Source: a virus (lineage: Duplodnaviria; Heunggongvirae; Uroviricota; Caudoviricetes). Taken from it: DNA of 64,000 nucleotides. The notes under the pieces were generated by a model. It was not told where the DNA came from, searched no databases, and saw only the letters and a list, made by a program, of their open reading frames with translations. The stretch lies in IMG/VR virus record IMGVR_UViG_2718218136_000001; one strand, given 5' to 3'. Below are positions 1-14,034 of this stretch, one piece after another. A program made the position numbers and the translations under genes. Each line of letters opens with the position of its first letter. Position 1 is the first letter of the stretch.

Positions 1-7
1 TTAAATG

Positions 8-24
8 ATTGCTCTAATTATTGA
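8..24. promoter_or_regulatory. C1-repressor operator-like 17-mer (ATTGCTCTAATtATTgA)
   Basis: 13/17 match to the P1 operator consensus ATTGCTCTAATAAATTT as I recall it; lies upstream of first ORF. Confidence 0.3.
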
Positions 25-39
25 TATTTATGGTGACAT

Positions 40-351
40 GTGAGAAAGGATTTCAACATCGACGGAAAATATGTATTGCTGTCTGTAAGCACTAATATTC
101 AGTCGCCAGCCGTCATTGTCACTGTAAAGCTGAGCGATAGAATGCCTGATATTGACTCAATATCCGTTGCGTTTCCTGTCAAAAGTATGCGTAGTGCTGA
201 ACATTTCGTGATGAATGCCACCGAGGAAGAAGCACGGCGCGGTTTTGCTAAAGTGATGTCTGAGTTTGGCGAACTCTTGGGTAAGGTTAACAATGTCCTT
301 TCAATCAGTTCAGCAAGGTCCAAAGCGTTAACAGCTTCCATGATGAAATAA
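40..351 (+). CDS. hypothetical protein (103 aa)
   Basis: ORF track; no recognisable motif. Confidence 0.4.
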   Translation: MRKDFNIDGKYVLLSVSTNIQSPAVIVTVKLSDRMPDIDSISVAFPVKSMRSAEHFVMNATEEEARRGFAKVMSEFGELLGKVNNVLSISSARSKALTASMMK

Positions 352-382
352 AAAAAAAGCCTGGCAAGGAGCCAGGCTGCAC
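352..382. terminator. hairpin gcctggc-aagga-gccaggc preceded by A9 (intrinsic terminator when read on minus strand)
   Basis: Stem-loop read directly; U-tract is on minus-strand reading. Confidence 0.4.
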
Positions 383-481
383 AAAAAGAGCGGGTTTGTA
401 TTCCACCATCAATCAAGAAGGAGTATAGCACACAGGTACTGAAGTGAAAAAATGTGATTCGCGATAAACAAAATACCTATC

Positions 482-505
482 ATTGCTCTAATTGATTGCT
501 ATAAT
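482..505 (+). promoter_or_regulatory. operator-like 17-mer ATTGCTCTAATTGATTG (482-498) followed by TATAAT at 500-505
   Basis: 12/17 match to operator consensus; -10-like hexamer adjacent; upstream of ref-like gene. Confidence 0.35.
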
Positions 506-596
506 TGAGCCGCAGTTTTTGTCAACTACGAAGACGTTGCCATTACTTCACTCCTTGACATCATTGGCGGCCATTAGGCCGCCTTTTTTTTGCCAT

Positions 597-1155
597 ATGA
601 AAACAATCGAACAAAAAATTGAACAGTGCCGCAAGTGGCAGAAGGCAGCCAGAGAACGAGCGATCGCTCGGCAACGGGAGAAGTTGGCTGATCCGGTCTG
701 GCGAGAATCTCAATATCAGAAAATGCGGGATACTCTCGACCGCCGTATCGCTAAACAGAAAGAGCGCCCACCAGCCAGCAAAACGCGGAAAAGCGCGGTA
801 AAAATAAAATCTCGTGGCTTGAAGGGGAGAACACCAACGGCGGAGGAACGGCGCATCGCCAATGCTCTTGGCTCTCCCCTGCATTGCCTGCTATATGCAT
901 GGAGTAATATCTAATGAGGTGTCTCTGCACCATATCGCCGGTCGTACCGCGCCGGGTTGTCATAAAAAGCAATTGCCACTTTGTAGATGGCACCACCAGC
1001 ATGCAGCTCCGGCTGAAGTAAGAGAAAAATACCCATGACTGGTCCCTGTTCATGCCGATGGTGTGGTTGGAGGCAAGAAAGAATTCACCTTGCTGAACAA
1101 GTCAGAGATGGAGTTACTGGCTGACGCCTATGAAATGGCAAACATCATGCACTAA
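597..1155 (+). pseudogene. ref: Ref-like RecA-dependent HNH nuclease, disrupted (one frameshift near 885-905 and in-frame TGA at 1036-1038)
   Basis: ATG at 597; basic N-terminal region, then in a second frame the HNH motif ...CIACYMHGVISNEVSLHHIAGRTAPGCHKKQLPLCRWHHQH...; span of 559 nt is close to a ~186-codon gene; gene name from recalled P1 map position. Confidence 0.5.
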
Positions 1156-1316
1156 TAAATATATTATTTTTAATGATAAATGATTGACAACTGACAAGTG
1201 ACTTCAGTCAGAATCATCACACGCCCGGTACGGATGGATCCCTTTTCAAATATTCCATGGACGGCACAGTCTGAGTACCGGGCGCTACCTTCAGTTGTAT
1301 TGCTAAGCCGCCGCTG

Positions 1317-1762
1317 GTGGCTTTTCTTTTTTGTAGGGGCGCTATGGATAAGAAAATATGCGTTGTTTCAATGAGCGTCGGCAAACCGGCGTCAATGACT
1401 GCTGCATGGATCAACAATGAGCTGATCATGGCTGAGCGGACCAGCTACCCTGAACGCCCCGCGATATGGAACTCCAGCTGCTGCGAATTGCGAGAAAAAG
1501 AGGAAAAGGGTTTTATCGTGCTGGTGGAAAGGAAAACAGCTTTATTACCGGTCGAGTTGGCCAGCGTGTAAGGTTGCGTGATCCCTTCATGAACGGCAGA
1601 CCGGTACTGATTGAAGCAATGCAGATTTACAAGGAATTGGAACGCCAGAAAGCGATCAAGTTACCGCGCAATCCGGCAAATACATCCTTCACCAAAGCAT
1701 CTTCGATTCCGAACACGATAAAAAAGGCGATGAATTTTTCAACATCAACTGGAGCGAAATAA
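1317..1762 (+). other. two overlapping ORF fragments in different frames; possible disrupted gene of unknown function
   Basis: ORFs 1317..1571 and 1466..1762 overlap in different frames; no motif recognised. Confidence 0.2.
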
Positions 1763-2031
1763 CGAGAACATGTTCTGACGTTACTATGTTGCTTTGCGAC
1801 GGAATACAACAACGTTGCCAGCGCCGACTACATCAGGGCAATGGCTGGAGAAGTTGAGGCCCGCCAGGAGCCATCGTTACTAAGCCCTCTGATTAACAGA
1901 ATTCGCGGAACCCAAACGCTGGCACAAAAACGGGTGCCGAAAGGGGAATTAACAGGAAAAGGAAATTATCTATAAACGTCAATGCATTAGGGTATACTTC
2001 TCCATAGAACTATAAGTAAATGGAGTAAGTA

Positions 2032-3185
2032 ATGAGCGAATATGTTGAGTTAGCATACGCTGCCGCTACAAGCAGGCTTTGTCTATTTACCGGGACTGGC
2101 TTTTCAAAGGCAGTCTCGAACGGCGAAGCACCAACGTGGAAAGAACTATTAAAAAAAGTTTGCAGCAAAGTTCACAACGCCAAACAGTTGGAAGACACGT
2201 TATTCCCTGATGATAAACCACCAGCACTGAGTCTTGAAGAAGCCGCACAAATACTATCTTTGAAGCTCAACATTGAAGGCAAGTCGATTTATGATGAAAT
2301 TGTTGACATCATATCTCCAATACAACTTGGCGAAGATATATCAAATATAAAGGATTTTTTTCAAAAAAGAACATTTCGTGTCATTACAACGAATTATGAC
2401 AAGTTAGCTGAATACTTAACTGGAGATGAGGAGGTTCAGTCTATTACCCCAGGCTTACCTATTCCTAAATATCCCTCCAAAGTTAAAATATATCATGTCC
2501 ATGGTTCTATTGACTCTCACAAAACATGATTGTTACATCAGAAGACTATTTTAGGTTTATAAACTCCGACACTTATTCTCTCGAAAACTTAGCACGATGC
2601 TGCATGAAAATACAGTTGCGATATTAGGCTATTCTTTAAGCGACACGAACCTAAAAGCAATTATAAATGATTACAAAATATTCTCGAAAGGTAACACTCT
2701 GTGCTCTAATATATTTTTCATCTCTCGCAGTGAAGTAAGTCAAGATATGAAGGATTATTATTTTTATTGTTTTGGAATACGAGTAATTGACAACACCGAA
2801 ATAGACTCTTTCTTTAAGAGATTGAGCATTAACATAATGTTAATTGAAGGCGTCATAGCAAGAGCCAGACAAAGTATAAAAAGAGTTTTATCAGGCACTT
2901 TTAACTATAAGGATGAATACATTAGATTAGAAGATTCATTCTATCAAATAACTTCCTCGATTATATGAGGGTTTCGACTGGAATGACGGACAAGTAGTTG
3001 ATTTTTTCAAGAGAATAATAAAAAAAAAGAGACTTAACAAGAGAGAGTGGTGCTTGGGAGCAATACGAGCAGCTTGCAAAATGGCTTATATATTTCGGCA
3101 GCCTTTAGAAATTGGTGGAACTAAGTATGAAAATGAATATTTAGACGCCGTTGAATACTCAATGTCCAACATGAGCAAAGAATGA
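2032..3185 (+). pseudogene. SIR2-like (sirtuin-family, defence-associated type) protein, reading frame broken at least three times
   Basis: Motifs LFTGTGFS, ITTNYD, HVHGS (frame 1), then IVTSEDYFRF (frame 0, 2526 onward), then ILGYSLSDTNL (frame 2, 2597 onward), then a further frame to stop at 3183-3185; good SD (ggag) 8 nt before ATG 2032; region clearly more AT-rich than flanks by eye. Confidence 0.6.
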
Positions 3186-3381
3186 GATTAGGTTATTCGT
3201 GGCATGCTTATAGAGCTTGGGAAACAAGATGGTCCACAATCATTGCTTCAAATCGATTAATAATAAAAAACGCATCGAAGAAATTGGCGTACTGGAGGAT
3301 GCTAATTCTATAGTAAAAGATATAGTGTAATTGAAGAGCGGCAAAAATTTAACGGGCAGCTACAACTGCCCGATATATAAA

Positions 3382-3624
3382 TCAATCCGCATTCAGGAGC
3401 AATGCGTTATCTATGATGATCTGCTCCCATTCTTCGAATGCCCGGTCGCGGACGCCCTGGGGAACGCTGTTAGTTTTGAAATCGACGACCGTACGCCATT
3501 TCCCGTCCGGACGGTACATGCGCAGAGCTTTACTTCCCCCTTCCCTGCGCACCTCAACGTTATGCTTATCAGCAAACTCTTGTAATGCTCGTAGCGTCCC
3601 ATGCTTGTAGTATCGCTTTTTCAA
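3382..3624 (-). CDS. small basic protein (80 aa), TTG start; possibly Lxc/Bof-like C1 co-repressor by position and size
   Basis: ORF track; start TTG overlaps stop of upstream 40-aa ORF (TTGA); identity by recalled size/position only. Confidence 0.4.
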   Translation of the reverse strand: MKKRYYKHGTLRALQEFADKHNVEVRREGGSKALRMYRPDGKWRTVVDFKTNSVPQGVRDRAFEEWEQIIIDNALLLNAD

Positions 3625-3743
3625 GTTTTCTCTCCAGCCTGTGCCAAGGCTTCAACTTCCAAATCGTAAGACTCAAACTCATAGTCCTGGTCGTCAACTT
3701 CTTCAGGCACTGGCAGTAAATGCCAGGCTGTATATCTGACCAT
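3621..3743 (-). CDS. small acidic protein (40 aa: MVRYTAWHLLPVPEEVDDQDYEFESYDLEVEALAQAGEKT)
   Basis: Hand translation of minus strand; stop overlaps TTG start of the downstream gene. Confidence 0.3.
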   Translation of the reverse strand: MVRYTAWHLLPVPEEVDDQDYEFESYDLEVEALAQAGEKT

Positions 3744-3782
3744 TATCAAAACGCCCTGGCTGTAGAGCGTCGCGGCTATGAG

Positions 3783-4053
3783 TGTTAGCGCCGGGCGGTC
3801 ATAACGGTAAATTTGCGAACGTCACGGTCAACGAGACGACCGAAATTACCATAACCGCGCTCCAGTAATAATTTTTTAATTTCCGGCCAGTATGGACCAT
3901 AGCTGCGGTACAGGCGGGGATTTTTCAGTAATCGCCCGCGTAGCCCTGACAGAAGAAATCAACGTATTCGTCTTCTGTCTTTCCTAACAACGCTGTACGG
4001 AGTACCGCCTCAAGATATGTTTTATTCGGTTTTATTGTATCAGATAGTGTGGC
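3783..4053 (-). pseudogene. small ORF (~90 aa) interrupted by one frameshift (MATLSDTIKPNKTYLEAVLRTALLGKTEDEYVDFFCQGYAG / RLLKNPRLYRSYGPYWPEIKKLLLERGYGNFGRLVDRDVRKFTVMTARR)
   Basis: Hand translation of minus strand in two frames; ATG at 4053. Confidence 0.3.
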
Positions 4054-4089
4054 CATATTATGCGACGCCCGGCGAACCGGGCGCTCCTG

Positions 4090-7000
4090 TTATGCGTATT
4101 GTTGGATGACGGCCAGAACGTCCGCCACGTTGTGTTTTGTCTCGATAATCCACCAGTTACCCGGGAAATCGCTGTTCTTCGCCTTCGCTGGCAGCCAGCG
4201 AGCGCCGAATTTCGCCTTGATTGCGTCTTTCGCACGGAAAAGAACGCCTTTCATGCCTGAGGCTTCCTGAAGCCCAAATACCTCGCCAGCGGCGAATTTT
4301 GGTGCGTACATCATCTTCAGGTCGGCGGTGGATACGCGATAATTCAGACCAAGAGACTGAGCTATGCTGGTGGCATCACCCTGTATTGATGATAACTCTT
4401 CTTGTTTCTCGTTTCTGGCGGCAATTTCTTCCTCCGTGATGTTGCCAAGGGCCAGGTTTATCCGATCAGCGTCGGCCTGTTCTCTTCATCGGTGCGCCCG
4501 GCAAGAACCGTGTTAATTCTCTGCAATATCTCCACATGATTCTTGCGCATGCTGAGCAATTCCGGCGTAACCTCGTTAAGATCCACCAGCCCAAGGATGG
4601 CAAGGTCGGAAAACATTGATACCAGGTTGTAGGTCATGCGATAGCTGAGTTGGCCATAGGCTGATGGCAACTGCACCGCATCCATTTGATAGGCATCCAT
4701 AAATTTAGAGCCGTCGTTTACGACATCCGCAATTGCAGGTGTGATTTTCCCTGTGGTGGCGGCCTCCCTGATTGCTGTTACCCATGATTGAGTCAGTGCG
4801 GCGACTGCATGATTCAGATTGGCTTCCCGTTCTGCTGCGATGCGCGCGCTTGCTGAGTCCATTGCCTGCTTGATCTCGGCTTTATTGCTGTAAATGCCAA
4901 TGGTGCCAAACTGTGCTGTGGTGATCTCATAATCTGACGCCCGGAACTCATGGGTACCGAAAATGGCATTGGTGACCTCAAGTTCAGAATCCCCGTTACG
5001 AGTAGCCCCCTGGCTTGTTTTCTCCGGCATTTTTGCGATCGCATCCGCTATTTTCTCCTGAATTACTTCAGGGATAGCGTATCTCCGTATGACGCGATTA
5101 CATCGCCATAATTGGAGCCAAACAATTCAACCAGGAATGTTTCTGCGAACGGATCTGGCGGTTATTCCCTTCCGACATCATACCAAGCACCCATTTTGCA
5201 ATTGACGACTTCAGCGCGCCGTCACGGCGATCCGGGTAAACCGCATGCTTCAGTGGGGCCGTATAGGAACCAACAAAATCAATGCTATAGCCTGACTCTG
5301 TAGTCTGAACGCCGTATGAGTCAGTGATTTTGATCATGCCGCGCTGCTGGAAACGGTAGAAATCGTCACAGGAAATGATGTCGTTAATCCCGGCGATGGA
5401 GACGCCACCACTGATTTTCTGCATAACAGCATCTTCATCGGGAGTTACATCAACCTGTTTATCCAGCGTCTTCACATCCCAGTTACCCGATTTGGTGCCT
5501 TTGAAGGTAAAGATGATCTCCGTCTGCGCGCTGGCTGTCGAAGTCCAGCGACTTAATGCGAACGATATCACCGGCACAATCATAGTATTGGCCTACACGC
5601 CATGAGCGATCGCCGATAACAAGGAACTCATTCGCATGGTTAACCAGATCAGGATCAACATCCAGAATGCCTTTATTTATTGCATCCTCCACCAGCGGGC
5701 GCAGGCGTTTGATATCCGTCGCGGCCTTCTGAGTACGGTTCAATAATTTCTCATAGCGGGAGATGGCCTGAGAGATATTAGCCTTGCGCTGAATGGCGCT
5801 TTTCAACGACGCGCGATACTGTGCTAACAACATACGGTCTGTGTGATGGACGCTACCCCAGCGGGCTTTCCAGTCTGCGTTATCAGCTGCTTTGGCCATT
5901 ACCGCCTGTTTGAATTTGGCGACGTCGGCGGTGGTCTTTTCAAGTTCCGCTTTGCTTCGCTCCAATTCAGCGGTAAGTACCTCCACATCCTCACCAGCTG
6001 CGTGCTGCGCCTTGATGTAGTTCTGAAGGTCGATAGTAGCCTGTTCTTTCTGGCGAGCGCGTTTCGCAGCTTTCGCCTTATCCATTTGAACCTGCATCAT
6101 TACCAGACGTTCGCCGTCATCCTTCGCGGTATACATCTGCATTTCGATCATGTCATTGGCGTCGGCGTTCTCCATTTCTGACTTATCTGAACGGAGGATA
6201 TCGGAGATCCAGCCTGCTTTACGCTTCAGCGTCTTCAGTCGGTATTCATCGAAAGACCCCTTGCCGCAGTAGTAGTGAACGCGAACGCTTGCACGGTTGG
6301 AGCCAACTCGTGCACCGCGACCGTTACGTTGTGCGATACTGGCTGGTGTCCACGGCAACGTCAGGTGGTGGATATCCGTCGTTCCTCGATGCAGGTTGAT
6401 ACCCACCTCTGCCTTTTTGTTGCAGATGATGATCGGAGTCCGGCCCTCCTGGAAGTCGGCTGCAATCTTTTCCAGACCGCCCACGACATTTCATTTTGCT
6501 GCGCGATATAGGCGTCATACAGAGCCATTTGCTCGTTGTATTTCGCTATCTGTGCATCTGTTGGTTCATCCGGTAGCTCTTTCGGCGGTTTAACCGCTTT
6601 CAGTTTCTTACCGGTTTTACCTGCCTCGGCAACCGTCTGAGCATTCAGGATCCCCACCTTTGAAGGTTCAAGGTTTAGAGCATTGCAGATAATGCGCTTG
6701 AGCTTCTGGTGCTGCGTTTTTTCATCGGTGAAGATGATTTGCTTACCTTCCGGGAAAAACTCCTTCAGCGTCGCGATCAGCTTCGCGTATTTCGGCGTAA
6801 CGGGGTGAGTTACGGTCAGTTCGTCAATGCCAAACCTGGCCAGGCGCTTATTCACTTCCTGCTCGAACGCTTCCGGAACCTGCAACTGAATAAACTCGCC
6901 CTTATCTATCAGGGAGTATTGCGATTGCTGCGTGATTGAATCATCACTGTCGTCGTCTTCGCTGGTGGCTTGTTTAGGCAAACTGTCCGCAAAGCTGCTG

Positions 7001-10000
7001 CACCGCATCGGCGTACTCCGGCAGGAAACGATAGGTGATCCGGCGATAGTACAGGTCCATGTCAGTACATACGCGGTCCATATCCCTGATTATTGAGAAG
7101 ATCGGACGGGCTTTCTCGTGCTCAATCACGCCGTCTTCATTGACCGAGGTCGTTACGCCATTGTTGGCTTTGGCCGCCGCTTCCGCCTGCTGACGCAATT
7201 CTTCATACGCCGCCAGTTGTTCTTCAGTAAGTGGTGCATCCTGCTGGTGTTCGTCCAGCTCCGGGATCTCCACGGTATCCTTAACGTCTTCCGCCGTTTT
7301 AAGCGTTACCCAGCGATGGAATATACCGCGCAGCGCATCAAGGTTTTCAAAGCCCACCAGCGCCATTTTCTTCAACTTCACCGCTAATTTTCTGTACCGT
7401 TTCCAGCCTGGTCTTGCCGAAGAATTTAACGAAGTCATCAGGACCGTAGATCCCCATGTTCTGCAGTATTCCTTCGGCAAACATGAGAAAGCATGTTGTA
7501 TGCATCGATCGGGGTGTTAACGACTGGCGTTGCAGTCAGGAGAACCGGCCCGCGCCCGCCATTCTTTTTCATCAGGTACGCGTTTTTAATTGCCATATCT
7601 CGCGCCGATTGCGCCACCGCGCTGGTGGGCAGATAGGCCAGTTGTGACGCTTCGCGACCATTTTTATAGCTATTGCGGTAGTTGTGACCTTCGTCAGCGA
7701 TCACACTATCGAAGCCCATATCCTCAAAGTACGGATACTTCTCTGCTTTTTCGGTGCCGGTATCTGAATACTCCGACAATACCCGGCGACGCGCGGCCTC
7801 TTTGCGGTGGGAGTCGGAGTCCATTGCGCTGGCTACGCGTCCGGCGGCAACGAAGTCATAAAGCATATCCTGTGCATGCTCATCTACGGTGTCATCACGT
7901 AGCGGAATGCGGGCGTATTGTTTTTGGTAAACACGACTGCACGGTAATTTGAGTGCGGATCGCGTTCATCCGCGCCGTGATAGTGGCTTCATCTGCCAGC
8001 TTAAGAGCATCGCGCATAACTGGAGTGCCATCAGTACCAAGAACAGGTTTACCGTTCTCATCGAGCACCGGCACCTGGCGAATCTGATCACCATCCATCA
8101 GCACATCAAGACCGACGAACAGGTAGTTACTGAATGCCTCTTCACTCAGGAATTCTTTTGCTTCGTAATACCAGTTTTCCAGCACTGATTTAGGCACTAC
8201 ATACGCAGTACGGGTGGAGCGACCGTTCTCATAGTTGAACGCCTCAAGCGCCAGCGCGGTCGTGGTTTTACCCAGCCCGGTGCCGAAGCCCAGGATCCGC
8301 GCCCATCTTCGGACAGTCGGCGCACCTCGCTATTCTGGTAATCAAATGGCTGGCGCTTACCGCTTAATCCCTTCAACCCAAGCGGATCGCCAGAGTGTTC
8401 ATACGGGATATTGCTATTGAACACATCGTTGTATTTGGCAACCAGCTCATCGTAGCGATCGTGCGTCTTGATCCACTTATTGAACTGGTCCTCAAGCAGT
8501 GCCATCTGCTCGCGGTAGCCGTTCGCCGTCGCGCTATCTTTGCCACCGATACGCGCACCATTGAGATACTTTTCCAGCTGTGCCGGGAACCCGGTCGCGT
8601 TTTCACCTGATTTACGGTCCCACTGTAGCGGATTCTCGCCTGTTTCTTTATCCTTGCGCTGGACGACACCGTATCGGTGCCCGACGAACAGACCATCACC
8701 ACCGTGATAGGTGTCAGAAACCATTTCGTCGCCTTCCAGCTGCACTGACTGCACATAGCGCAGATCCGGATAGCCGTTTTCCTGCAAAAACTCCAGAATG
8801 ACGGAACGGTCGAACCAACGGCTATTGAGCTTAAACCGGATATTCTCTGCTGGCGTCTTGATGCGCTTCTCTTCGATCGCTGCCAGCTGATTAAGGACGT
8901 TGTTCTTTACTGGACCGTCGGGGAGCGTGGCGAGGAATTCCTGTTTTGGAGCCACTATCTCGTTAATGTCGCCGCTGGTGGCGCGGGCGAACGGAACAAT
9001 CCCGCCATACGGTGAAACCGCAATACCAGGAGTGCTGGCCAATAAATTAAGCAACTCTTCATCACTGGCTGGCAATTCGCCGGTAAACGCAAGGCGGAAA
9101 TCATCGAGCTGGATTGGATCGCGGGTAAGATCGCTATAGAGATAACGCAGGGTGTCCTGATAGCTGGTGGAGTCATAACTGGCGCTGGAATCATGCGTAA
9201 CCAGCTTTCCTGTCAGCTCGTCAGAAATAGTGCCATCCAGCTTAATTGCACCACGGAAAGCAACCAGGCGCGCGCACCGCTTCCCGATAATTAGCTATCG
9301 GACCGCGACCAGGGTTACCAAAACGGTCAATCTCTGCCTGCAAACGGGATACCAGAGAAAGGCGCTGCTGTTCGATTTGTTCAGCACTATGCCCGGCGGC
9401 CTTCATATCCTGATATTCAATTAACATCCGGCCAATCATCGCCCCACGATACAAGCGTTCACGGTATTTTTCAGGCTGGCTGTTAATCCAGTCCACCAGC
9501 GGCACCATATCGTCGCTGATTGATGTGGTGTACTTATCGCGGACATTTGCCATCTGGGTAAATGTCATACCGAGACGGCCTTCTGTTGTAGTCAGGTTAC
9601 GCTGAAGAGCCTCCCAGCTATCCGCGCCATAACTGGCAGCATCAATTTTAAGTTCCTTCCCGGCATCAGCTTCAATCCAGCGACCACCAGCATATTTTGC
9701 CATACGCCATTAATCAGGCGCATTTCCCCTTCACCAACAACGTCTGCGGTCAGTGACGGTTCAGCCATATCGAGCAAAGACCAGTCGATACGGCTTTCGA
9801 AACGATGAATCAGCTTCGCTTTAAGAGCCTGGTTATCAATCTGACCGTCGGCACGAACCTCAATACGCCCCTGGAAGCCCTTTTCCTGGGTGCCATGAAC
9901 AAACCGGCGGCCATCCTTTTCAAACCACTTGCCAGAAATAAACGTTGGCCAAAGCACATTTGCTGATTCAAGAGTGCTTTCATCCACCAGGGAGATTTTC

Positions 10001-10842
10001 TCAGCCATCTCTGCCGGATGTTTGCGCATCAGCACCACATCAACGATTGTACTGGTCCCGTTTGCGTCAAAAGTACCGGTAGGCAAGCGGTGAGCGCCAA
10101 GAAATTCAGCTTTACGGGATAGGCGCAGGCGTAACCGCTTCATGTTTGAACCTGAAACAATGGACGGCGGCACAATCACACACATGAATCCGCCAGGCTT
10201 TATCTTGTCCAGCATGCGGAGCATGAAGTAAGAACCCATGTCCGTTTCTTCTGCGTAAGGCTTATCGATGTTGCGTGTGTTATCACGACCACCGAACGGA
10301 ACGTTACCCACAACATGGTCGAATGAATCGTTAGGCGTGCTTACAGCCAGCTGTTCGAACGGGGAAATCTGTACGCTGTCTTCCGGGTGTAACAGCTGGT
10401 TTATACGACCGGAAACACTGCTGATCTCAGTCGCGGTCATCACCGTACCAACCGGTTTTGTCTCATTAAAAACGCCGGTGCCCGCCGATGGTTCCAGAGT
10501 GTTACCTACGTCCGCGCCGTAGAGCTTCATGATCTCCCAGACACCTTCAGCGATCGGCTTTGGTGTGTAATATTCGGAGACGGACCCGCCAATGCCGCCT
10601 TCACCGGTGTACCCAGCCAGGATCTGGCGCTGTTCATCTGTCAGTGTCGCGCCGTCCACCAGCGAATTAAGCAAATCTATCGCCTTCTGATTCGCCTCCC
10701 GGCGCAGTCGGTCATAGCTTTTGCCTTCCACCTTTTCCACGCCGTATTTAATCGGCGCTCGGTGAGATGTTATTGCCCTAATGTATTTTAATATTTCGCT
10801 GACACTTGAACAGCGAAACACCCCCATAGATAGCTTGTTCAT
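4090..10842 (-). pseudogene. darB: DarB-like giant N6-adenine methyltransferase + SF2/SNF2-type helicase fusion (~2250 codons), fragmented into at least 11 ORF pieces
   Basis: Collinear motifs on minus strand: MTase EPSAGTGVF and VVGNVPFG (9592..10842 piece); Walker A GFGTGLGKTTT (~8262-8290, hand-translated between listed ORFs); DEGH and LLTATPVVNTP (7438..7866); helicase motif VI QRNGRGAR (5483..6484); total span ~6753 nt. Confidence 0.7.
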
Positions 10843-13509
<2,667 letters not shown>

Positions 13510-13639
13510 TCAAAGTTGGCGCACGCAACTTGCCTGTTACCAAGAAATTAAGGAGGTTCCGCAAGCGGCTAACGTCCAGGCACCGCGTGAGACAAGCATC
13601 ATCACGTTTAATAATTCAATCAATCCGTTTAATTGACAC

Positions 13640-13665
13640 CCTCCACGCCCTGACGGGCGTGGAGG
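13640..13665. terminator. GC-rich hairpin cctccacgccc-tgac-gggcgtggagg between convergent genes
   Basis: Read directly; no clear U-tract. Confidence 0.3.
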
Positions 13666-13668
13666 ATG

Positions 13669-14034
13669 TCACGCTGCCTCTTTAATGTTGGCGGCTATCC
13701 ATGCCGCCGTGTGCTGTTTAACCTGGTCCAGGTCGATGTATGTGCCAACATATTGACTCAAATCCTGCAAGGTACCGATAAATGCATCGGTGCTCTGATC
13801 GACGAATTTATCAGCCAGGAAATCAGCAACCAGTTTTGGCACACCATCATGTTCCGAAGGTTGTTTTTCCTCGCCACTACCGCCGCCGGACGCGCCGTAC
13901 CCCATCTGTTGCATGATCTGGTCAATTTCATCGCTGATATCCAGCAACTCCATGCCACTCGCGGTAGCAGCTTTGGACATCAGAGAATCCAACTTGTCGC
14001 TGAGGTCCATTAACTCAATAGCTGATAGTGTCAT
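13669..14034 (-). CDS. hypothetical acidic protein (121 aa), DdrA-like position
   Basis: ORF track; position downstream of DarA-like gene. Confidence 0.35.
   Translation of the reverse strand: MTLSAIELMDLSDKLDSLMSKAATASGMELLDISDEIDQIMQQMGYGASGGGSGEEKQPSEHDGVPKLVADFLADKFVDQSTDAFIGTLQDLSQYVGTYIDLDQVKQHTAAWIAANIKEAA

What the first reader, a model, noticed from the sequence alone, without database searches (positions are those of the whole stretch)
2032..3185. AT-rich SIR2-like candidate defence gene in the accessory slot between ref and lxc/darB
The ORFs carry defence-type sirtuin motifs (GTGFS, TTNYD, HVHGS, SEDY, ILGYSLSD) in a block that looks markedly more AT-rich than the flanking backbone. 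From memory of the P1 map this is where the type III res/mod system sits, so this looks like a defence-cargo swap at a variable locus. The gene is about 385 codons with no obvious partner gene, and its frame is broken at least three times.
Basis: partly seen in the sequence, partly recalled or inferred. Interest (0 to 1): 0.7.

Follow-up and report, generated by a model that had tools for sequence, protein, structure and literature searches.

The report
Lone SIR2 defence-type gene in P1 plasmid
A P1-like phage-plasmid carries, where phage P1 keeps its restriction system, a single AT-rich gene for a SIR2-type (probably NAD-destroying, anti-phage) enzyme that public records already annotate but nobody has tested, and its broken reading frame is almost certainly a sequencing artefact.

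Summary
The gene runs from window 2032 to 3330 (+) and is 435 codons when repaired, not about 385 ending at 3185. It lies between mat and lxc, exactly where P1 carries res-mod. This interval is the published variable region RD-1.

No partner gene recurs in P1-like plasmids or in seven chromosomal contexts, most of which are defence islands or mobile elements. About 125 of about 700 P1-like plasmids carry one of four alleles in this slot.

The frame is broken 7 times, always by deletions (9 bases in all). These are part of 41 deletion events against 4 insertions in window 1-13,640. They hit every gene there, and the rest of the window is nearly clean. That points to an assembly artefact, not decay.

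The best reading is a stand-alone, DSR-like abortive-infection NADase. This function is inferred and has not been tested.

The parts
1344..1975 (+). mat-like (maturation control) gene. This is the left backbone flank of the slot. In the window it is broken by 10 deleted bases.
   Evidence: Homology to P1 runs up to window 1975, which is P1 3468, the mat stop. It is annotated 'maturation control protein' in relatives. The deletions are listed.
1976..3383 (.). AT-rich cargo block (1408 nt here, 1417 nt in intact relatives). It replaces the 6.3-kb res-mod(IS5) block of P1 (P1 3469-9751).
   Evidence: The P1 homology break points are at window 1975 and 3384. GC is 0.358, the lowest 1.4-kb stretch of the window. 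It is the RD-1 of PMC6906374.
1976..2031 (+). 56-nt leader with a GGAG ribosome-binding site 6 nt before the ATG. It is identical in all four SIR2 alleles.
   Evidence: Alignment A4 shows invariant columns from the mat stop to the ATG, even for the allele with about 66% nucleotide identity.
2032..3330 (+). SIR2-family gene, 435 codons when repaired. Here it is split over three frames by 7 deletion events (after 2518, 2577, 2966, 3023, 3106, 3182 and 3270).
   Evidence: The repaired product differs from WP_032271833.1 at A223T and L298I only.
2032..2794 (+). SIR2 (Rossmann-type, SIR2_2) domain, residues 1-255. It carries invariant GTGFSK (21-26), TTNYD (N121) and HVHG (H157, which aligns with KomC H146).
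2795..3327 (+). C-terminal all-helical repeat domain, residues 256-435. No family is assigned. Its most variable segment is residues 256-340. It is the putative sensor or regulatory domain.
3353..3372 (-). GC-rich hairpin (8 pairs) between the convergent SIR2 and lxc genes. It has a T-run on the minus strand, so it is a terminator-like site for lxc transcripts and possibly for both directions.
   Evidence: It is conserved in alleles 1-3 and replaced by a different hairpin in allele 4.
3382..3624 (-). lxc (modulator of C1). This is the right backbone flank of the slot. The window lacks 6 bases in frame relative to the comparison relative.
   Evidence: Homology to P1 resumes at window 3384, which is P1 9752. 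P1 lxc is at 9750-9998. The deletion is listed.
6..13640 (.). Deletion-dense block: 41 deletion events and 4 insertion events against the 98%-identical relative. It contains the SIR2 gene and all its neighbours (ref, mat, lxc, ulx, darB, prt, pro).
   Evidence: Beyond 13673 the aligned blocks (about 16.8 kb at 97% identity or more) carry 7 deleted and 2 inserted bases.

Best explanation
Window 2032-3330 encodes a stand-alone 435-residue protein. It has an N-terminal SIR2 (SIR2_2-type) domain with the catalytic Asn and His intact, and a C-terminal domain of about 180 residues made of helical repeats.

The gene is AT-rich accessory cargo in the mat|lxc variable slot (RD-1) of a P1-like phage-plasmid. 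This is the place where P1 itself carries the EcoP1I res-mod system.

The most likely function is a single-gene abortive-infection defence, built like a compact DSR1/DSR2:
1. In the lysogen the enzyme is kept inactive.
2. A component of a superinfecting phage is recognised through the variable helical domain.
3. The SIR2 domains become active, probably through oligomer or filament formation as in KomC, ThsA and Avs5.
4. They hydrolyse NAD+, which stops the infected cell and the invading phage.

Shown here: the fold, the conserved catalytic residues, the slot, the absence of a partner gene, purifying selection on the intact alleles, and defence or mobile-element neighbourhoods of homologues.

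Inferred: NADase rather than another NAD-dependent chemistry, the sensor role of the C-terminal domain, the trigger, the oligomerisation and the abortive outcome.

The seven frame breaks in this window are sequencing or assembly errors, not gene decay.
For: **Identity**
- 99% DNA match to 6 plasmid and 12 complete E. coli genome records with an intact 1308-nt 'SIR2 family protein' CDS.
- The repaired product has 2 amino-acid differences from that protein.

**Fold and family**
- Pfam SIR2_2, E=1.5e-23.
- PADLOC hits to PDC-S25, ThsA, LmuA, Dsr1 and Dsr2, over the SIR2 core only.
- PDB sequence hits to KomC and ThsA.
- AF2 model of an 88%-identical relative, pLDDT 85.5, pTM 0.80.
- Foldseek top hits are DSR2, ThsA and KomBC.
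- N121, H157 and the GTGFSK loop are invariant in 54 homologues.

**Slot**
- P1 homology breaks exactly at the mat stop and the lxc stop.
- P1 has res-mod there.
- Other plasmids carry other cargo.
- The literature describes RD-1 / variable region 1 as a low-GC hot spot.

**Single gene**
- No conserved neighbour in 4 plasmid alleles or in 7 chromosomal contexts.
- The neighbours there are a prophage integrase, a NERD-UvrD helicase, a dGTPase-like HD protein, Hachiman HamA plus a DEAD helicase with integrases, and an island of HNH, DUF87 and STAND-like genes.

**Functional gene in relatives**
- dN/dS is 0.02-0.18 in every segment between alleles.

**Artefact**
- 41 deletion against 4 insertion events in window 6-13640.
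- 27 of the 45 events lie in homopolymer or repeat context.
- Every gene in the block is hit, including portal and protease.
- The other aligned blocks (about 16.8 kb) carry 9 gap bases at similar substitution divergence.
- Within the SIR2 gene there are 7 indel events against only 6 substitutions.
Against: - No experiment on this protein or family was found.
- It is not a full-length member of any named defence system: the NCBIfam Dsr1 and Dsr2 scores are far below cut-off and the PADLOC hits are partial.
- No strong sigma-70 promoter was found directly upstream. The gene may be read through from mat, which in P1 is C1-repressed and late-expressed. That would fit a lysogen-protecting role poorly.
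- One of the seven chromosomal contexts (Pseudoalteromonas) shows no defence or mobile genes.
- The structure was modelled on an 88%-identical relative, not on the window protein itself.
- The cause of the deletions cannot be proved without reads.
- The window also lacks an 8.9-kb lyz-ssb-ddrB segment, so a really degraded element is not excluded.
- No P1-like record in the phage collection carries the gene.
Confidence: 0.65

Rival explanations
1. The gene is a true pseudogene. The element is a decaying P1-like plasmid in which the SIR2 gene and its neighbours have really accumulated small deletions.
For: - The window lacks the 8.9-kb lyz-ssb-ddrB segment present in relatives, so the element may be defective as a phage.
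- P1-like elements are reported to degrade into plain plasmids.
- About 18 of the 45 indel events are not in repeat or homopolymer context, and some remove 2-6 bases.
Against: - The indels are almost all deletions (41 events against 4).
- They fill one contiguous 13.6-kb block, with density falling away from the window start (37, 12, 6 and 4 deleted bases per successive 4 kb).
- They stop at a structural junction.
- They hit every gene there, while the rest of the window is nearly free of them at equal substitution divergence.
- In the SIR2 gene there are 7 frameshifts but only 2 non-synonymous and 4 synonymous changes, which is not the pattern of slow decay.
- None of more than 130 public copies shares any of the deletions.
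Confidence: 0.12
2. The protein is an NAD-dependent protein deacylase or ADP-ribosyltransferase that modifies a host or plasmid protein for regulation or maintenance. This is what the current RefSeq name 'SIR2 family NAD-dependent protein deacylase' implies. On this reading it is not an immune NADase.
For: - The RefSeq product name.
- The catalytic His is common to all of them.
Against: - Only PF13289 (SIR2_2) is matched. No other Pfam family is listed up to E=1, so the classical sirtuin family PF02146 (recalled from memory) is absent.
- The protein has four Cys and no CxxC pair, so the Zn-ribbon of classical sirtuins is missing (read directly from the sequence).
- The genomic company is defence or mobile genes.
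Confidence: 0.07
3. It is the effector of a multi-gene system (Thoeris ThsA/ThsB, SIR2-HerA, Kongming KomABC or Lamassu) whose partner genes lie elsewhere on the plasmid or chromosome.
For: The best sequence and structure matches are effectors of such systems: KomC, ThsA and LmuA.
Against: - In all four plasmid alleles the gene is flanked directly by backbone genes.
- Seven chromosomal contexts share no neighbour.
- The matches cover only the SIR2 core.
- The C-terminal domain is helical, not SLOG, and is strongly conserved across genera as part of one chain.
Confidence: 0.05
4. The gene serves the phage-plasmid itself rather than the host. Examples are exclusion of or competition with other plasmids or P1-type elements, an addiction-like function replacing that of res-mod, or a role during P1 lytic growth if it is co-transcribed with mat.
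For: - It is on the same strand as mat, 56 nt downstream, with no terminator predicted between them and no strong promoter of its own.
- In P1, mat has a C1 operator and a late promoter.
- res-mod, which it replaces, is described as contributing to plasmid maintenance.
Against: - Homologues occur in chromosomal defence islands with no P1 context.
- A hand-read candidate promoter (TTAACA, 16 nt, TATAAA at 1949-1976) could give expression independent of mat. This candidate is untested.
Confidence: 0.08

Closest known systems
DSR2 / DSR1 (defence-associated sirtuins, single-protein NADases)
   Same: It is a single gene with an N-terminal SIR2 NADase-type domain followed by an all-helical repeat region that, in DSR2, senses a phage protein. 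DSR2 gives the top Foldseek hits (E about 1e-10; the SIR2 domain alone gives TM 0.70 and 21% identity).
   Different: It is 435 residues, against about 1000-1270. The NCBIfam Dsr1 and Dsr2 equivalog scores are 25.8 and 23.2 bits against a 1400-bit cut-off. The helical domain is about 180 residues and shows no detectable sequence similarity to DSR sensor domains.
KomC (SIR2 NADase of the Kongming system)
   Different: KomC is 264-278 residues with no C-terminal domain, and it works with partner proteins (KomBC complex). No partner gene is present here.
ThsA (Thoeris type I effector)
   Different: ThsA has a C-terminal SLOG domain that binds a cyclic ADPR-type signal made by a TIR-domain partner, ThsB. 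Here the C-terminal domain is a helical repeat, and no TIR gene is adjacent.
PADLOC candidate system PDC-S25 (single-gene SIR2 candidate)
   Same: It is the best PADLOC hit (E=2.8e-27) and is also a lone SIR2 protein.
   Different: The best stretch covers only profile positions 128-286 of 517 (query residues 101-256). So the similarity is in the SIR2 core and not in the whole architecture. PDC-S25 is itself only a candidate.
EcoP1I res-mod of phage P1 (occupant of the same slot)
   Same: It occupies the same mat|lxc interval, is AT-rich accessory cargo and has a defence role.
   Different: It is unrelated in sequence and mechanism: a type III restriction-modification system of two genes on the opposite strand, 6.3 kb with IS5.

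Membership tests
SIR2_2-type SIR2 domain proteins (Pfam PF13289) | Match to the family HMM above the gathering score | tested here: met
   83.9 bits against a cut-off of 24.5, residues 117-252
SIR2_2-type SIR2 domain proteins (Pfam PF13289) | Sirtuin Rossmann fold with a conserved catalytic Asn and His | tested here: met
Classical sirtuin protein deacylases | Zn-binding Cys4 module and a match to the classical sirtuin family model | tested here: not met
DSR1 / DSR2 | Full-length match to the NCBIfam equivalog models (about 1200 residues) | tested here: not met
   25.8 and 23.2 bits against a 1400-bit cut-off, over the SIR2 core only
DSR1 / DSR2 | Phage-triggered NAD+ depletion by a single protein | not testable with these tools
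   Needs infection assays and NAD+ measurement
Thoeris ThsA | C-terminal SLOG domain and an adjacent TIR-domain ThsB gene | tested here: not met
   The PADLOC ThsA hit covers profile positions 107-233 of 478 only. The C-terminal domain is all-helical. The neighbours are mat and lxc.
SIR2-HerA (Nezha) | Adjacent HerA-type ATPase gene | tested here: not met
   There is no such gene in the slot. The PADLOC SIR2 (SIR2+HerA) models hit only weakly (E about 1e-8) and partially.
Kongming KomC | Short SIR2-only protein encoded with its partner genes | tested here: not met
   There is an extra 180-residue domain and no partner gene is adjacent
Lamassu (SIR2-type LmuA) | Adjacent SMC-like LmuB gene | tested here: not met
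   The PADLOC LmuA hit covers positions 14-224 of 433 only. There is no SMC gene in the slot.
PADLOC PDC-S25 | Full-length match to the candidate's HMM | tested here: inconclusive
   E=2.8e-27, but the best stretch covers profile positions 128-286 of 517
P1-like variable region RD-1 cargo | Lies between the mat stop and the lxc stop, is absent from P1 and from many relatives, and has low GC | tested here: met
   Literature.

The most novel reading that the evidence does not exclude
This family is a minimal, stand-alone 'mini-DSR'. A helical-repeat domain of about 180 residues is enough to sense a phage component and switch on a SIR2 NADase. In P1-like phage-plasmids, four cassette alleles swap between identical flanks. 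Their specificity would be set mainly by the hypervariable segment at residues 256-340, giving a compact, naturally modular sensor-effector pair.
Probability: 0.3. Interest if true: 0.5.

Novelty: new variant of a known kind. Interest (0 to 1): 0.3.

Why it matters
If the intact alleles defend against phages, this would be one of the smallest single-chain SIR2 immune proteins. It would come with four natural allelic variants at a fixed site on a transducing phage-plasmid that is common in E. coli. That would make it a handy system for asking how a short helical domain senses infection and gates a SIR2 NADase, and how phage-plasmids trade defence cargo.

For this particular window the practical message is more modest. 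The gene is already annotated in more than a hundred public records, and its slot is a published hot spot. The "frameshifts" flag a poor-quality 13.6-kb stretch of the assembly rather than biology.

Tried and rejected
- **Phage collection.** Megablast and tblastn found no P1-like phage with this gene, only two remote Gram-positive phage hits.
- **Structure prediction of the repaired protein.** An 88%-identical relative was modelled instead.
- **Exact look-up of the truncated 165-aa product,** to find the source assembly and its contig position: nothing on record. So the 'contig end' explanation for the deletion gradient could not be tested.
- **Literature searches** for the protein accessions, for SIR2 in P1-like plasmids and for PDC-S25: no functional study found. 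The 'Sir2 homologue' in Vassallo 2022 was not identified further. The same paper describes PD-T7-2 as having a HerA-like second protein, so I took it to be a SIR2/HerA-type system and not this family.
- **Positive selection on the C-terminal domain:** rejected. dN/dS stays at or below 0.18. The uneven divergence reflects recombinant mosaicism plus relaxed constraint at residues 256-340.
- **Consensus promoter scan:** nothing significant upstream of the gene, and the counts equal the shuffled expectation.

Full report
**What is in the sequence**

ORF listing and base composition show a run of + strand ORF fragments from 2032 onward in a block with GC 0.32-0.39, between flanks of 0.46-0.55.
- GTGFS at 2092-2106
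- TTNYD at 2386-2400
- HVHGS at 2494-2508
- SEDY at 2538-2549
- ILGYSLSD at 2621-2644

The block 1976-3383 has GC 0.358. It is the most AT-rich 1.4-kb stretch of the 64-kb window (mean 0.483, sd 0.031; 0.1% of windows are as low).

**True extent and the frame breaks**

Megablast against plasmids and complete E. coli genomes finds 99% matches with an intact 1308-nt CDS annotated 'SIR2 family protein'. Base-by-base alignment to NZ_CP027575.1 gives these results:
- The window gene runs from 2032 to 3330.
- It lacks 9 bases in 7 events, after positions 2518, 2577, 2966 (2 nt), 3023 (2 nt), 3106, 3182 and 3270.
- It has no insertions and only 6 substitutions.
- With the frame restored, the 435-residue product differs from WP_032271833.1 at A223T and L298I.

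'At least three' breaks is in fact seven.

**The breaks are not specific to this gene**

Aligning the whole window to the same relative shows 41 deletion events (58 bases) and 4 insertion events in window 6-13,640. The remaining aligned blocks (about 16.8 kb at 97% identity or more) carry 7 deleted and 2 inserted bases, at similar substitution divergence.

Deleted bases per gene in the block are:

| Gene | Deleted bases |
|---|---|
| ref | 2 |
| mat | 10 |
| SIR2 | 9 |
| lxc | 6 |
| ulx | 5 |
| darB | 17 |
| prt (portal) | 1 |
| pro (protease) | 2 |

Density falls with distance from the window start: 37, 12, 6 and 4 deleted bases per successive 4 kb. Of the 45 events, 27 lie in homopolymer or short-repeat context. 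The block ends at a structural junction (13640/13673), where the window also lacks an 8.9-kb lyz-ssb-ddrB segment.

Taken together, the deletion bias, the context, the sharp localisation and an indel-to-substitution ratio above 1 inside the SIR2 gene are the signature of an unpolished long-read stretch or a poorly supported assembly bridge. They are not the signature of gene decay. None of the more than 130 public copies shares the deletions, and the truncated product is not on record. I put about 85% on artefact. Only the reads can settle it.

**Where it sits**

The P1 reference has the order cra-cre-c8-ref-mat-[res, mod::IS5]-lxc-ulx-darB. Homology between the window and P1 stops at window 1975 (P1 3468, the mat stop) and resumes at window 3384 (P1 9752, the lxc stop). 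So a 1.4-kb one-gene cassette replaces the 6.3-kb EcoP1I block.

Other P1-like plasmids hold two unrelated ORFs (CP057418.1) or an EAL gene, IS3 and an HTH gene (NZ_AP028829.1) in this interval. Published comparisons already call the interval RD-1 (P1 3,469-9,749) and 'variable region 1', and link such regions to low G+C (PMC6906374; PMC9603915).

About 703 PLSDB records carry the adjacent lxc-ulx backbone, and about 126 carry a SIR2 gene of this family. That is roughly 18%. They fall into four allele groups at about 99, 87, 82 and 66% nucleotide identity, and the representative of each group that I inspected sits in the same slot. The only refinement is that the left neighbour is mat rather than ref.

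**What the protein is**

- Pfam: SIR2_2, 83.9 bits against a 24.5-bit cut-off, residues 117-252.
- PADLOC: partial hits, over the SIR2 core only, to PDC-S25, ThsA, LmuA, Dsr2 and Dsr1.
- NCBIfam: no family reaches its cut-off.
- PHROGs: full-length match to phrog_7567, function unknown.
- PDB by sequence: KomC and ThsA, again over the core only. H157 aligns with KomC H146, the residue mutated in the deposited KomC(H146N) entry.

A homologue search returns 704 proteins. The top 120 are almost all 431-444 residues long and 52-60% identical over the full length, from Xenorhabdus, Pantoea, Vibrio, Halomonas, Pseudomonas, Idiomarina, Paracidovorax and others. GTGFSK, TTNYD, HxHGS and GYSLxD are invariant, and so are a set of Trp, Tyr and Gln residues in the C-terminal half.

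AlphaFold2 on the 88%-identical relative P0002, with 53 homologues, gives pLDDT 85.5 and pTM 0.80. The model has a Rossmann-type domain to about residue 255, then helices only.
- Foldseek ranks DSR2, ThsA and KomBC first.

The sequence has no CxxC pair, so the Zn module of classical sirtuins is absent. The current RefSeq name 'NAD-dependent protein deacylase' is therefore probably a poor description.

**Partner genes and neighbourhoods**

In all four plasmid alleles inspected the gene is flanked directly by backbone genes. The seven chromosomal contexts are:
- E. coli: alone beside a prophage integrase.
- Stutzerimonas: beside a NERD-UvrD helicase and a DUF2971 gene.
- Pantoea: beside an HD/HD_assoc (dGTPase-like) gene.
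- Halomonas: in an island with HNH, DUF4145, DUF87, FRG and AAA_16-TPR genes.
- Idiomarina: next to HamA and a DEAD helicase (Hachiman-type Pfam families), between integrases.
- Paracidovorax: near PDDEXK and SMC-like genes.
- Pseudoalteromonas: an uninformative context.

No neighbour recurs. The company is mostly defence or mobile-element genes.

**Allele structure**

The 56-nt leader from the mat stop to the ATG, including the GGAG site, is identical in all four alleles. Allele 4 diverges within a few bases of the start codon and has its own terminator hairpin.

Between alleles 1-3, residues 1-112 are 98-99% identical, while residues 256-340 are 65-75% identical. dS rises from about 0.15 to above 1 along the gene, so the alleles are recombinant mosaics. 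dN/dS is 0.02-0.18 everywhere and is highest at 256-340. The intact alleles are thus maintained by selection, and their least constrained part is the start of the helical domain.

**Mechanism (inferred)**

By analogy with DSR2, ThsA, KomC and Avs5, the most likely function is a stand-alone abortive-infection NADase. The helical domain would hold the SIR2 domain inactive and recognise a phage-derived trigger. Activation, probably through higher-order assembly, would deplete NAD+. I give this about 0.65.

The rivals are:
- a true pseudogene in this element (0.12)
- another NAD-dependent chemistry or a regulatory role (0.07)
- an effector with an unlinked partner (0.05)
- a function serving the plasmid itself or its lytic cycle (0.08)

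The last rival is kept alive by two facts. No clear promoter of its own was found, and the gene lies 56 nt downstream of mat, which in P1 is C1-repressed and late-expressed. A hand-read candidate promoter (TTAACA, 16 nt, TATAAA, at 1949-1976) overlaps the mat stop but is untested.

**Verdict**

But the gene is already annotated in many records, the slot is a published hot spot, and the frame breaks are most likely technical.

What remains open, and is modestly interesting, is that this compact architecture of SIR2 plus a helical repeat fits none of the named SIR2 defence systems and has not been tested experimentally.

Noticed in passing
window 6-13640: A deletion-dense block of 41 deletion and 4 insertion events against a 98%-identical relative. 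It breaks ref, mat, ulx, darB, prt and pro as well as the SIR2 gene. Density decays away from the window start, and the rest of the window is nearly clean. It looks like an unpolished or low-coverage assembly stretch.
   Followed up: yes
window 13640-13673: A junction at which about 8.9 kb present in relatives is absent, and not found elsewhere in the window. The missing segment holds lysozyme, ssb, a DUF2829 gene, ddrB, an Icd-like gene and a KilAC antirepressor. It is either a real deletion, which would make the element lysis-defective, or a misassembly. It coincides with the end of the deletion-dense block.
   Followed up: partly
window about 32790-34250: The second-lowest GC stretch of the window (about 0.40). 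It overlaps a segment (32794-34171) that does not align to the relative NZ_CP027575.1, so it is probably another P1-type variable region with different cargo.
   Followed up: no
window 1976-2031 and loci L001, L002, L003, L015: The 56-nt leader upstream of the SIR2 ATG is identical in all four SIR2 alleles, even the one at about 66% nucleotide identity. The alleles therefore behave as cassettes exchanged between fixed flanks. Allele 4 also has a different terminator hairpin downstream.
   Followed up: partly
window 1949-1976: A hand-read sigma-70-like candidate (TTAACA, 16 nt, TATAAA) overlaps the mat stop codon. The scan tool missed it because the last base is not T. It could give SIR2 expression independent of the C1-controlled mat promoter.
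   Followed up: no
window 3382-3624 (lxc): lxc lacks 6 bases in frame (after window position 3606) relative to the comparison relative NZ_CP027575.1, giving an 80-codon ORF instead of 82. Unlike the other indels, this one preserves the frame, so it may be a real variant.
   Followed up: no
public records: About 18% of P1-like plasmid records carry this SIR2 gene, but no record in the phage collection does, P1 included. The gene is so far seen only in elements deposited as plasmids or prophages.
   Followed up: partly
RefSeq annotation of homologues: RefSeq now names the protein 'SIR2 family NAD-dependent protein deacylase'. The absence of a Zn module and the much closer structural match to defence NADases suggest the name is misleading.
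   Followed up: partly
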